Part shown: piece after piece, positions 4,757-7,076 of the stretch
Layout: every line of letters begins with the position of its first letter
How positions within the stretch are numbered: the stretch's first letter is position 1
From: Thermoplasmata archaeon
GTDB taxonomy: Archaea; Thermoplasmatota; Thermoplasmata; GCA-020350865
Assembly: GCA_020348445.1 (NCBI GenBank)
Contig: CP070751.1
Span: 4,653,060-4,717,059, forward strand
Direction of reading: 5' to 3'
Length of the DNA: 64,000 bases
Notes under the pieces: model-generated
The model's database searches: none
What the model was told of the DNA's origin: nothing
The model's input: only the letters and a program-made list of their open reading frames with translations
Made by a program: the position numbers and the translations under genes

Positions 4757-5488
4757 TTAAGCCTTCTCGGATCTCCATTTTTCAAAATAATTGTACGGTA
4801 ACGTACCGAGCATGTTTCTACTTATTTCAAATTCCCCTCCAAGGGTGTCTATTACCTTTCTCATGGTCACATCGACCAATGATTCTGTAGAATGTTGGCC
4901 CAGTCTGGATTCGTAATGCTCAATTACCACATTAATTAGATCTGTTAATATATCCACAACTTCCTCGCATCTCTTCTCAGATATAGTCGCACCATTGAGG
5001 CTTTTTATGAAGAAATTCTTTGCATCTTCCAAATCACCCTCGAACAAAAGTGAATTCTTAACGGCATTTTTTTCAGTGTTTTCCAACTTTTCAAATCTTC
5101 CATCCACGAAGGAATCAACACTTTGTCCCACCACCTTTCTCGATTTTAGAAGGATGGTATAAAGAATTGCGAAAAGGACAATAGGTTTTTTTTCGGTTCT
5201 AATACTTTTCGCCATCAGGGTGGAGATATCAAATTCGATTTTGACCTTCGGACTCTTCACCTGATACTCGAACGCCTCCCTGGTTTTACCTCTTTTTATG
5301 CGTCTGTTCACCAAACCTAGTTCATAAAGCTCTGTAAGGTATTTTACAGCTGTAGCGATATGAATGTTAAGGTCTCTGGCCACCTCGCTTGCTGTTTGCC
5401 AATCGTTTTTATAGACGTTGATCATCACGTCCAAACAATGCTCCTTACCCAAAACAAACAGCATTCTTTTCATTGCTTCCTTTTTCAT
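4757..5488 (-). CDS. ArsR-like winged HTH transcriptional regulator with a C-terminal extension
   Basis: N-terminal TASEVARDLNIHIATAVKYLTELYELGLV HTH followed by a wing. Confidence 0.75.
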   Translation of the reverse strand: MKKEAMKRMLFVLGKEHCLDVMINVYKNDWQTASEVARDLNIHIATAVKYLTELYELGLVNRRIKRGKTREAFEYQVKSPKVKIEFDISTLMAKSIRTEKKPIVLFAILYTILLKSRKVVGQSVDSFVDGRFEKLENTEKNAVKNSLLFEGDLEDAKNFFIKSLNGATISEKRCEEVVDILTDLINVVIEHYESRLGQHSTESLVDVTMRKVIDTLGGEFEISRNMLGTLPYNYFEKWRSEKA

Positions 5489-5853: not shown

Positions 5854-6396
5854 ATGAGAATGGTGGTTAGCGGAGTTCCTGGCGTCGGGAAAACCTCGGT
5901 TATGGAAGGGGTGGCCAAGGAAAAAGGGCTTAGCATCGTGAACTATGGTTCCGTTATGTTCGAGGTGGCGAAAAGCCAAGGTCTTGTAGAAAACAGGGAT
6001 CAGATAAGGAAACTATCAGTGGAGAAACAAAGGGATATCCAGGAGGCGGCTGCACAGAAAATATATGAGATGGGCGATGTAATAGTGGACACGCACTGCA
6101 CTATAAAAACCCACGGAGGATTTTATCCAGGACTGCCTGAATGGGTTCTAAGAAAGCTCAAGCCTGATAGAATCATTTTGGTGGAAGCAACACCCGATGA
6201 GATCGCCAAAAGAAGAGCAAAGGATGCAAGCAGGATTAGAGATGAGGATAAAGAGAGAGAGATATCGGAGCATCAAATGATGAACAGGTATGTTGCCATG
6301 GCCTATTCGATGCTAACAGGGGCATCTGTTAAAATAGTTTTTAACCATGATGACGGTCTCGAAGATGCCATAATGGAAGTACTGGATGTTTTTTAA
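5854..6396 (+). CDS. adkA: Archaeal adenylate kinase
   Basis: P-loop GVPGVGKTS; IVDTH motif; GFYPGLP; HQMMNR, typical of the archaeal AdkA family. Confidence 0.93.
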   Translation: MRMVVSGVPGVGKTSVMEGVAKEKGLSIVNYGSVMFEVAKSQGLVENRDQIRKLSVEKQRDIQEAAAQKIYEMGDVIVDTHCTIKTHGGFYPGLPEWVLRKLKPDRIILVEATPDEIAKRRAKDASRIRDEDKEREISEHQMMNRYVAMAYSMLTGASVKIVFNHDDGLEDAIMEVLDVF

Positions 6397-6425
6397 ATTT
6401 TTGATCAAAAGGGGATATGATGAAG

Positions 6426-6637
6426 ATGTGTGTCCCCCGATACTAACAGCCCTGTTCATAGATTGCGAGACGCACTCTCCCAGTCCTGACCCATATCGGG
6501 GGATTGTTGGATATCGGGGTTGTCCTGCAATCATATATTGATGACGCATCATCAGTCATGCAGGGACCCGTATGCGATATCTCACCTTGGCCTTGCTCCG
6601 TGTATCATCATTCAACACGGTCTTCGAACCGAGGCAG
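6426..6637 (-). ncRNA. Three-hairpin box H/ACA pseudouridylation guide RNA
   Basis: The minus strand folds into 3 hairpins. Each has a lower stem, an internal pocket and an apical K-loop or K-turn (tandem sheared G.A pairs). They are followed by AGA (6582-6580), ACA (6507-6505) and ACA (6431-6429), each 14-16 nt from its pocket. The pockets are complementary to conserved archaeal 23S rRNA sequences. Confidence 0.85.
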
Positions 6638-6797
6638 TTGTATATTGGGAGTTGAAGGTTATTAACGTTGCGGTTAGAAAGATATCGATGATTATAAATA
6701 TCAAATCTACCAGATATACTCTCCTCAATTATTAAATCCCACAACTTTTTATAGTGGGTGCGCAATTACACTCGATACTGTTTCTAGGAGAATATCC

Positions 6798-7076
6798 ATG
6801 AAAAGGCCCAGAAATATCAAAACGTACTGCAAATCCTGCCATAAACATACCACCCATGAGATAGAAAGGGTGAAAAAGAAAAAGGCAAATGAGCGGAAGT
6901 GGGGTCAGAGAAGGTTCAGACGGGTCACCGCAGGATACGGTGGCTTTCCCAGGTCAAAGCCTGAGGGCAGGGAAAAGCCCACAACACGGATTTTTCTCAG
7001 GTACAGATGCAAGGAATGCAAAAAGGCCTCGCAAAGACCCTGCATCAGGGCCAAGAAATTCGAATTCACAGGGTGA
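6798..7076 (+). CDS. rpl44e: 50S ribosomal protein L44e
   Basis: YCKSCHKHT...GYGGFPR...[15 protein letters not shown]. Confidence 0.95.

What the first reader, a model, noticed from the sequence alone, without database searches (positions are those of the whole stretch)
6426..6637. Unannotated three-hairpin H/ACA guide RNA predicted to pseudouridylate 23S H69 and the peptidyl-transferase centre, beside the nop10 operon
Seen on the minus strand. HP1: stem TGCCTCGGT/GCCAAGGTG, pockets TCGAAG and GCAAG, K-loop CCGTGT-TGA-ATGAT-GAT-ACACGG, box AGA. HP2: stem TATCG/CGATA, pockets CATACGGGTC and AACCC, K-turn-like CCTGCA-TGA...ATGAT-TGCAGG with a UGCG-capped apex, box ACA 14 nt from the pocket. HP3: 10-bp stem TCCCCCGATA/TATCGGGGGA, pockets GGGTCA and GTTA, K-turn with a 3-nt UAU bulge, box ACA 16 nt from the pocket. 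Established: archaeal H/ACA RNAs have 1-3 such hairpins, bind L7Ae at the K-turn and use Cbf5-Nop10. Inferred against archaeal 23S consensus recalled from memory: HP3 reads UAAC-[U]A-UGACCC (H69, E. coli-equivalent 1915). HP2 reads GGGUU-[U]A-GACCGU (about 2586). HP1 reads CUUGC-[U]N-CUUCGA (about 2496, weakest). The RNA is divergent from the operon that carries nop10.
Basis: partly seen in the sequence, partly recalled or inferred. Interest (0 to 1): 0.82.

Follow-up and report, generated by a model that had tools for sequence, protein, structure and literature searches.

The report
Three-hairpin archaeal H/ACA guide RNA

Summary
On the minus strand at 6426-6637 there are three hairpins. Each has a lower stem, an internal-loop pocket, an upper stem ending in a K-loop or K-turn, and a 3' ANA box.

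It is not a new kind of RNA. Rfam's HgcG model (RF00064 = Pab40/Pf7) aligns end to end at 53.6 bits (E 7.6e-14). That is below the curated cut-off of 77 bits, which would explain why it is unannotated.

A model built from relatives finds one copy in 130 of 151 genomes of the class and 104 of 121 of the phylum. The stems covary strongly; the pocket sequences do not.

- **Hairpin 1** pairs around E. coli position 2496. This is the experimentally verified Pab40 motif 1 site.
- **Hairpin 3** pairs around U1915 in H69, the Pab40 motif 3 and Haloferax sR-h45 site. A guide change matches an rRNA change in one family.
U2586 is still a likely second, and ancestral, target.

Adjacency to the nop10 operon is confined to the genus. 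Verdict: a new member of a known family, of moderate interest.

The parts
6659..6666 (-). A/T-rich TATA-like box (GTTAATAA), about 25 nt upstream of the first hairpin; inferred promoter
   Evidence: Read directly. The 17-mer CCGCAACGTTAATAACC is identical in a congener, and other relatives have an A/T box at a similar distance. The Rfam model's 5' flank aligns here. Function is inferred, not shown.
6583..6636 (-). Hairpin 1. P1 6636-6628/6591-6583; 5' pocket UCGAAGA 6627-6621; P2 6620-6615/6603-6598; K-loop 6614-6604; 3' pocket AGCAAG 6597-6592
   Evidence: P1 and P2 covary (helices 1 and 2, all 11 pairs with changes on both sides). The pockets pair 5+6 bp with CUUGC[U]A-CUUCGA at E. coli 2496. 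Only 3 of 400 shuffled guides score as well.
6580..6582 (-). ANA box of hairpin 1 (AGA), 14 nt after the guide G that pairs next to the target (n+15)
   Evidence: Relatives have ACA, AAA or AGA here.
6510..6581 (-). Hairpin 2. P1 6581-6575/6516-6510; 5' pocket CAUACGGGUC 6574-6565; P2 6564-6559/6529-6524; K-turn-like UGA...UGAU with apical stem 6558-6530; 3' pocket ACAACCC 6523-6517
   Evidence: P2 and the apical stem covary (helices 4-6). P1 is kept with 55 different sequences among 74 relatives. The pocket cores GGGU and ACAAC are conserved without covariation (helix 3).
6505..6507 (-). ACA box of hairpin 2, at a fixed 16 nt from P2
6433..6503 (-). Hairpin 3. P1 6503-6494/6442-6433; 5' pocket UGGGUCA 6493-6487; P2 6486-6481/6454-6449; sheared G-A pairs 6480-6478 with 6457-6455; UAU bulge 6460-6458; distal stem-loop 6477-6461; 3' pocket GUUAG 6447-6443
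   Evidence: Eight of the nine P1 pairs have changes on both sides (helix 7). GGGUCA and GUUA are near-invariant in 74 relatives. They pair 4+6 bp with UAAC[U]A-UGACCC at E. coli 1915.
6427..6433 (-). ACA box of hairpin 3 (ACACACA; the first ACA abuts P1, n+15 from the target)
   Evidence: GGGACA, GGGAUA or GGGCAUA is conserved in relatives.
6407..6410 (-). T run (UUUU) about 20 nt after the ACA box; possible archaeal terminator, shared with the convergent adenylate kinase gene
   Evidence: Read. Inferred only.

Best explanation
The interval encodes a single-copy box H/ACA small RNA of about 210 nt with three guide hairpins. It is the Thermoplasmatota orthologue of HgcG/Pab40/Pf7/Afu-4.

Mechanism, inferred from the well-studied family:
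- L7Ae binds each K-loop or K-turn.
- Cbf5-Nop10-Gar1 bind the lower stem and the ANA box.
- The two strands of each internal loop pair with 23S rRNA on either side of an unpaired uridine, which Cbf5 isomerises to pseudouridine.

Predicted targets, in E. coli numbering:
- Hairpin 1: position 2496, next to the peptidyl-transferase centre.
- Hairpin 3: U1915 in helix 69.
- Hairpin 2: the A loop of helix 92. This would be U2554 with two further unpaired bases, or U2555. U2586 is a probable weaker or ancestral second site.

Shown here: the anatomy, the homology, the covariation, the complementarity, and the co-variation of guide with rRNA. Inferred: transcription, RNP assembly and the modifications themselves.
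For: **Family.** RF00064 aligns over its full length at 53.6 bits, E 7.6e-14. Homologues were found in 18 of 41 relatives with the Rfam model. My own model R1 found them in 130 of 151 genomes of the class and 104 of 121 of the phylum, nearly always as one copy.

**Structure.** 92.6% of cells are paired and 33 of 44 pairs have compensatory changes; the controls score far lower. The two 'helices' made of pocket letters never covary, as expected of guide sequence.

**Geometry.** P2 is 6 positions long in all three hairpins. The distal G-A pair is the 9th position from the base of P2 in each, matching the 9-10 stated in PMC7075261. ANA lies at n+15 for hairpins 1 and 3.

**Proteins in this genome.** Nop10, Cbf5, Gar1 and L7Ae.

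**Targets.**
- The best-scoring site in a same-order 23S is E. coli 2496 for HP1, 1915 for HP3 and 2555 for HP2.
- The first two equal Pab40 motif 1 (Psi2588, seen in vivo and in vitro) and motif 3 (2016, active in vitro) (PMC2377435). HP3 also equals sR-h45 SL2 (PMC7075261, PMC2584109).
- All 6 genomes of family f16, whose H69 reads UGACUC, have the guide GAGUCA. The others have UGACCC with GGGUCA.

**HP2, from 54 guide/rRNA pairs in 24 families.**
- A-loop pairing exceeds U2586 pairing in 50 of the 54.
- In 16 genomes position 2586 is C, yet the pocket cores are kept.
- Where rRNA has U2551C (f14, f19), the guide has G opposite it.
- Where rRNA has GCCC changed to GCCG (G075), the guide has GGGU changed to CGGU.
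- Duplex energies for this guide are -8.4 and -6.6 kcal/mol at the A loop, against -5.4 and -5.4 at its own 2586 site.
Against: - There is no transcript or modification data.
- The match is below Rfam's gathering score.
- This assembly holds only the last ~330 nt of 23S (from about E. coli 2566). No congener has domain V either. The HP1, HP3 and A-loop targets are therefore read from a same-order genome and from class-wide conservation.
- Complementarity alone is weak for HP3: 63 of 400 shuffled guides score as well, and the 4-bp 3' arm contributes only -0.6 kcal/mol.
- An A-loop target puts the uridine at n+16 or n+17 from ACA. That is outside the 14-15 nt rule of PMC2377435, though within the 17 tolerated in PMC7075261.
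- By homology, stem II is the U2586 guide in haloarchaea. In family f15 the guide pairs 5+11 bp with the 2586 site. The distal CCC of the 3' pocket tends to decay where 2586 is C. U2586 is therefore not excluded here.
Confidence: 0.9

Rival explanations
1. Hairpin 2 guides only U2586, as the first reader proposed and as its homologue does in haloarchaea. On this view the A-loop complementarity is a by-product of the two rRNA sites sharing GGGUU.
For: - sR-h45 SL1, the stem II homologue, makes Psi2605 (= E. coli 2586) in vivo and in vitro (PMC7075261, PMC2584109).
- Muller et al. expect the same site for Pf7 and Afu4 motif 2 (PMC2377435).
- ACA spacing is exactly n+15 for U2586.
- Family f15 guides pair 5+11 bp with their own 2586 site.
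- The distal CCC of the 3' pocket is degraded in f4, G079, G108, G099 and G127, where 2586 is C. It is intact in G134, a relative of G099 and G127 that has U2586.
Against: - This organism's own rRNA gives only 5+3 bp, with an extra unpaired base.
- rRNA positions 2588-2593 vary among relatives (GACC, CACC, CAAC, UACC, AAAC) while the guide core stays GGGUC.
- The 16 genomes with C2586 keep AUGGGUC and ACAAC.
- The invariant guide C next to P2 has no partner in this model.
- The compensatory changes opposite rRNA 2551 and 2560 only make sense for the A loop.
Confidence: 0.2
2. The RNA is functionally coupled to the neighbouring rpl44e-rps27e-eIF2alpha-nop10 operon through a shared divergent promoter region that co-regulates the guide and the RNP protein.
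For: The RNA start lies about 160 bp from rpl44e on the opposite strand, and nop10 lies in that operon.
Against: - Only 3 of 80 Thermoplasmata eIF2alpha loci, all of the same genus, carry the RNA upstream.
- In one congener the RNA sits beside adenylate kinase without rpl44e.
- The operon itself is conserved everywhere without the RNA.
Confidence: 0.07
3. It is not an RNA gene. The hairpins are terminator or intergenic palindromes, or the interval encodes one of the small ORFs that overlap it.
For: Mechanical ORFs of 51-79 aa overlap the interval. Both strands fold about equally well.
Against: - There is a strand-specific covariance-model match.
- Compensatory changes occur in the stems.
- Loop-length changes in relatives are not multiples of three.
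- The ANA boxes and G-A motifs are conserved on one strand only.
Confidence: 0.02

Closest known systems
HgcG / Pab40 / Pf7 (Rfam RF00064) of Thermococcales, and Afu-4 of Archaeoglobus
   Same: - Three consecutive H/ACA hairpins in the same order, each with a K-loop or K-turn and an ANA box.
- Full-length covariance-model alignment.
- Motif 1 and motif 3 pockets are aimed at the same rRNA sites: Pab 2588 = E. coli 2496, and Pab 2016 = E. coli 1915 (PMC2377435).
   Different: - The score of 53.6 bits is below the family cut-off of 77.
[quoted passage not shown] Its 3' pocket reads ACAACCC, where the model consensus has UAACCC.
- This gives 6-7 bp with the A loop. Position 2555 is the site originally proposed for Afu-4 motif 2 and later dismissed on spacing rules (PMC2377435).
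Haloferax volcanii sR-h45 (two-hairpin H/ACA RNA)
   Same: SL2 is the stem III homologue and targets H69. SL1 is the stem II homologue (PMC2584109, PMC7075261). It may be the only H/ACA guide in its genome, as may be the case here: no HgcE or HgcF match was found.
   Different: - sR-h45 has no hairpin 1 and has a 56-nt linker.
- SL2 leaves UNUN unpaired and makes both Psi1940 and Psi1942. Here the guide A pairs with U1917, so only 1915 is in the canonical position.
- SL1 targets U2586 with typical geometry. Here that site is poorly matched.
Eukaryotic snoRNAs for the same rRNA positions: snR191/U19 (H69), and, from my own knowledge and not checked here, snR46 (yeast Psi2865 = E. coli 2496) and snR10 (yeast Psi2923 = E. 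coli 2554)
   Same: The mechanism is the same, and so are the functional centres of the large subunit. An A-loop target would match the snR10 site.
   Different: The eukaryotic guides are two-hairpin H/ACA RNAs without K-turns. There is no detectable sequence homology, and the yeast equivalences are recalled rather than tested.

Membership tests
Archaeal box H/ACA guide sRNA | Hairpin made of lower stem, internal-loop pocket and upper stem | tested here: met
   Three such hairpins. The stems are supported by compensatory changes (HP2 P1).
Archaeal box H/ACA guide sRNA | K-turn or K-loop with tandem sheared G-A pairs, 9-10 positions above the base of P2; P2 of 5-6 bp | tested here: met
   P2 has 6 positions and the distal G-A pair sits at position 9 in all three hairpins. 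The UGA/GA letters are invariant or nearly so. The rule is quoted from PMC7075261 and PMC2377435.
Archaeal box H/ACA guide sRNA | ANA box 3' of each hairpin, about 15 nt from the target position | tested here: met
   The boxes are AGA, ACA and ACA. Spacing is n+15 for HP1 and HP3. For HP2 it is n+15 with U2586, or n+16/17 with U2554/2555 (tolerance up to 17 in PMC7075261).
Archaeal box H/ACA guide sRNA | Bipartite complementarity to rRNA around an unpaired UN | tested here: met
   Pairing is 5+6 bp for HP1, 4+6 bp for HP3 and 6-7+4 bp for HP2 (A loop) against a same-order 23S. Guide and rRNA co-vary in f16, f14/f19, f15 and G075. Single-genome significance is modest: 3, 63 and 19 of 400 shuffled guides score as well.
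Archaeal box H/ACA guide sRNA | Cbf5, Nop10, Gar1 and L7Ae encoded in the genome | tested here: met
Archaeal box H/ACA guide sRNA | Expressed as a stable small RNA, with pseudouridine present at the predicted sites | not testable with these tools
   No transcriptome or modification data are available. The organism is known only as a metagenome-assembled genome.
Rfam RF00064 HgcG (Pab40) | Covariance-model score at or above the gathering score (77 bits) | tested here: not met
   53.6 bits, E 7.6e-14, full model 1-276. One of the 18 relatives' matches reaches the cut-off, at 78.7 bits. It is a homologue by E-value and architecture, but outside the curated family boundary.
Rfam RF00064 HgcG (Pab40) | Three hairpins whose first and third pockets address the Pab 2588 and Pab 2016 sites | tested here: met
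   with the numbering bridge Pab 2678 = E. coli 2586 and Pab 2016 = H. marismortui 1956 = E. coli 1915 from PMC2377435 and PMC2584109.

The most novel reading that the evidence does not exclude
Hairpin 2 of this phylum-wide RNA is a two-site guide whose emphasis shifts by lineage. In most Thermoplasmatota it would install a eukaryote-like pseudouridine in the A loop (E. coli U2554/U2555), a modification I do not know to have been reported for Archaea. It would keep the ancestral U2586 site where the rRNA allows. Lineages whose A loop mutated (f15, and partly G075) have re-tuned the 5' guide strand to U2586. That would be a documented natural case of guide and rRNA co-evolution with target switching.
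Probability: 0.45. Interest if true: 0.5.

Novelty: new member of a known kind. Interest (0 to 1): 0.35.

Why it matters
It fills an annotation gap. A near-universal, single-copy H/ACA guide RNA of Thermoplasmatota scores below Rfam's cut-off and so is probably missed by standard pipelines. The model built here, R1, finds it in about 86% of the genomes sampled.

It predicts three pseudouridines in functional centres of the large subunit for a phylum with almost no modification data.

The guide/rRNA pairs across 24 families also bear on an old ambiguity about stem II of this family, A loop versus U2586. They point to the experiment that would settle it. It does not reveal a new mechanism.

Tried and rejected
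1. Rfam at gathering threshold over the whole window found only a tRNA. The permissive scan was needed.
2. The organism's own 23S could not be used. The assembly is 353 contigs joined by runs of N and holds only the 3' end of the 23S. A DNA search of four congeners found no domain V.
3. Two whole-class searches with the archaeal LSU model failed on the server. A 751-nt BLAST query was used instead.
4. Conserved synteny with the nop10 operon was tested and rejected.
5. Fold energy as evidence was rejected, because both strands give z of about -2.
6. RNAalifold's pairing of GGGU with ACCC in HP2 and of CAG with CUG in HP3 was rejected as structure. These pairs never covary and lie inside the pockets.
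7. Other Pyrococcus H/ACA families (HgcF, HgcE) gave no match in this genome. The controls were also silent, so this is uninformative.
8. The paper describing Afu-4 (Tang et al. 2002) is not held. Statements about Afu-4 rest on PMC2377435 and PMC2584109.
9. Earlier notes of this scan near the locus concern other features and did not bear on this one.

Full report
**What is there.**

- HP1 (6636-6583): lower stem UGCCUCGGU/GCCAAGGUG, an internal loop of UCGAAGA and AGCAAG, a 6-bp upper stem CCGUGU/ACACGG closed by the K-loop UGA-AUGAU-GAU, then AGA.
- HP2 (6581-6510): lower stem GAUAUCG/CGAUAUC, loop strands CAUACGGGUC and ACAACCC, upper stem CCUGCA/UGCAGG, then U-GA opposite GA-U and an apical stem capped by UGCG. 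ACA follows 16 nt after the upper stem.
- HP3 (6503-6433): a 10-bp lower stem, loop strands UGGGUCA and GUUAG, an upper stem of six positions, tandem G-A pairs, a UAU bulge and a distal stem-loop. ACA abuts the lower stem.

The unconstrained fold gives the same three hairpins. The energy z-score is only -2.1, and the opposite strand folds as well, so energy is no argument.

**What it is.**
- A permissive Rfam scan of 6300-6800 aligns the whole HgcG model (RF00064, the Pab40/Pf7 three-hairpin H/ACA RNA of Pyrococcus) to 6426-6692 on the minus strand. The score is 53.6 bits, E 7.6e-14, below the curated cut-off of 77 bits. The default scan of the window had reported only a tRNA.
- The same model finds one match each in 18 of 41 related genomes.
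- From 16 of these I built an alignment (A1) and a covariance model (R1).
- R1 finds the RNA, nearly always as a single copy, in 130 of 151 genomes sampled from the class (59 of 66 genera) and 104 of 121 from the phylum.
- These tallies, and the tally, include one unpublished genome (G097). No sequence from it was used, and no other claim rests on it.
- The organism is a Thermoplasmata archaeon. Its nearest named record is a 'Methanomassiliicoccales archaeon' MAG.

**Structure support.**
- On 38 sequences aligned to R1, 92.6% of cells form standard pairs and 33 of 44 pairs show changes on both sides.
- The covariation score is 0.559, against 0.184 for shuffles (0 of 500 reach it) and at most 0.093 when partners are slid by 1-3 columns.
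- The alignment was fitted to the model, which favours it. The gap to the slid controls is nevertheless large.
- The two predicted 'helices' made of pocket letters (GGGU/ACCC in HP2, CAG/CUG in HP3) never covary. They depart only by unpaired cells, as expected of guide sequence held by an external target.
- The lower stem of HP2 was missing from the model. It is present in relatives with 55 different strand sequences among 74.

**Family rules.**
- In all three hairpins P2 has six positions and the distal G-A pair is the ninth position from its base. This matches 'H2 of 5 or 6 bp' (PMC2377435) and '9-10 bases' (PMC7075261).
- The ANA box lies 14 nt after the guide base that pairs next to the target in HP1 and HP3, which is the typical n+15.
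- The genome encodes Nop10 (in the window), Cbf5, Gar1 and L7Ae.
- An A/T-rich box, GTTAATAA, lies about 25 nt upstream of HP1. It is conserved in a congener, and relatives carry similar boxes. A T run follows about 20 nt after the last ACA. Both are inferred signals.

**Targets: material used.**
- The assembly is 353 contigs joined by runs of N. It holds only the last ~330 nt of 23S, starting near E. coli position 2566. No congener has domain V.
- I therefore used 23S genes of relatives and numbered them by alignment to E. coli rrlH.
- A scan of a same-order 23S plus a 16S with this RNA's pockets puts the best site of each hairpin at E. coli 2496 (HP1, CUUGC[U]A-CUUCGA, 5+6 bp), 2555 (HP2) and 1915 (HP3, UAAC[U]A-UGACCC, 4+6 bp).
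- Shuffled guides reach these scores in 3, 19 and 63 of 400 trials respectively. Complementarity in one genome is therefore only suggestive, above all for HP3.

**HP1 and HP3.** The case rests on homology and co-variation.
- Pab40 motif 1 makes Psi2588 and motif 3 modifies 2016 in P. abyssi (PMC2377435).
- With Pab 2678 = H. marismortui 2621 = E. coli 2586, and Pab 2016 = H. marismortui 1956 (PMC2377435, PMC2584109), these are E. coli 2496 and 1915.
- The stem III homologue in Haloferax, sR-h45 SL2, makes Psi1940/1942 in vivo (PMC7075261).
- Across 74 guides the HP3 pocket is GGGUCA/GUUA almost everywhere.
- In the six sampled genomes of family f16, H69 reads UGACUC and the guide reads GAGUCA. 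This is one compensated event in one clade.
- The HP1 pockets (GAAG/GCAA) are kept in most families but replaced or lost in f4, f8, f11, f14 and f19.

This organism's own rRNA reads GGGUU-U-A-CACCGU. That gives 5 bp with AACCC and 3 bp with GGU, and leaves an extra unpaired base.

**HP2: evidence for the A loop.**
- The A loop of helix 92, GGGUUG-U2554-U2555-C-GCCC(A/G)U, pairs with the whole 3' pocket (CAACCC or ACAACCC) and with GGGU, plus more in many relatives.
- In 54 genomes from 24 families with both guide and rRNA, A-loop pairing exceeds 2586 pairing in 50.
- Position 2586 is C in 16 of them (f4, G023, G079, G026, G108, G099, G127, f14, f19). The cores AUGGG(U/C)C and ACAAC persist there.
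- rRNA 2588-2591 varies (GACC, CACC, CAAC, UACC, AAAC) without any matching guide change.
- Where rRNA has U2551C (f14, f19), the guide has G opposite it. Where the stem changed from GCCC to GCCG (G075), the guide changed from GGGU to CGGU.
- The first base of the 3' pocket varies (A, C or U), and f14 has A at 2555. U2554, with two further unpaired bases, is therefore the more general candidate. A UNN configuration was shown to be functional in PMC2377435.
- Duplex energies for this guide are -8.4 and -6.6 kcal/mol at the A loop, against -5.4 and -5.4 at its own 2586 site.

**HP2: evidence that keeps U2586 alive.**
- Stem II is the proven U2586 guide in Haloferax (PMC7075261).
- The spacing for U2586 is exactly n+15. 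The A loop needs n+16 or n+17, outside the 14-15 rule of PMC2377435 although within the 17 tolerated in PMC7075261.
- In family f15 the A loop has changed (U2551G, U2555C). Its 5' guide strand, CGCGAUGGUU, pairs 11 bp with 2588-2598, including a lineage-specific rRNA substitution.
- The distal CCC of the 3' pocket is degraded mostly where 2586 is C. One within-family contrast exists: G134 against G099 and G127.

My reading is that the A loop is the main HP2 site in this organism (about 0.6) and that U2586 is a plausible second site. Related genomes are not independent, so these counts are descriptive.

**Neighbourhood.**
- The RNA lies between adenylate kinase (NF003122, 243.7 bits), which converges on it, and rpl44e-rps27e-eIF2alpha-nop10-PAC2, which diverges from it.
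- The arrangement is not conserved. R1 finds the RNA upstream of eIF2alpha in only 3 of 80 Thermoplasmata loci, all of the same genus. In one congener rpl44e is not beside it.
- The proximity to nop10 is therefore best regarded as incidental.

**Verdict.**
It is probably wrong, or incomplete, for the third.
- The RNA is a new, sub-threshold member of a known family rather than a new class.

Confidence in each part:

| Claim | Confidence |
|---|---|
| It is an H/ACA guide of the HgcG lineage | 0.9 |
| HP3 targets 1915 | 0.85 |
| HP1 targets 2496 | 0.8 |
| HP2's main site is the A loop | 0.6 |

Noticed in passing
family f18 genomes G028, G047, G090, G098, G133 and others (no window coordinates): The R1 model finds no copy of the RNA in any of the 12 (class sample) or 3 (phylum sample) genomes of family f18, which are small and about 99% complete. 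These genomes still encode Nop10 (5 of 5) and a weak Gar1 (3 of 5). Either the guide has diverged beyond recognition, or the proteins serve guide-independent functions there.
   Followed up: partly
L029 (G031) and L034 (G021) 23S genes, just after helix 69; L027 (G024) near E. coli 2476: Several relatives carry insertions in 23S: about 700 nt and about 270 nt immediately 3' of H69, and about 60 nt in domain V. These are probably rRNA introns or expansion segments. In many further genomes the BLAST match starts only after H69, which suggests the same thing.
   Followed up: no
window 6395-6415: The inverted repeat CCCCTTTTGATCAAAAA lies between the stop codon of adenylate kinase (5854-6396, +) and the 3' end of the guide RNA (-). 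It could act as a two-way terminator.
   Followed up: no
window 4757-5488 (-): A 243-aa ORF has no Pfam match and only weak N-terminal similarity to winged-helix regulators (Sta1/Lrs14, TFE-alpha; E 1e-5 to 4e-4). It is conserved next to adenylate kinase in two congeners.
   Followed up: partly
phylum-level R1 hits, e.g. G161, G171, G180, G203, G240 (130-160 nt): Some lineages of the phylum give full-model matches that span only 130-190 nt. This suggests versions of the RNA that have lost or shortened one hairpin, as in the two-hairpin haloarchaeal form.
   Followed up: no
G000 assembly as a whole: The 5.16-Mb 'single contig' is 353 contigs joined by 100-N spacers. Congeners are 2.3-3.7 Mb. 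The rRNA operons are almost entirely unassembled: only 16S positions 1344-1467 and 23S positions 2721-2973 are present (Rfam model numbering).
   Followed up: partly
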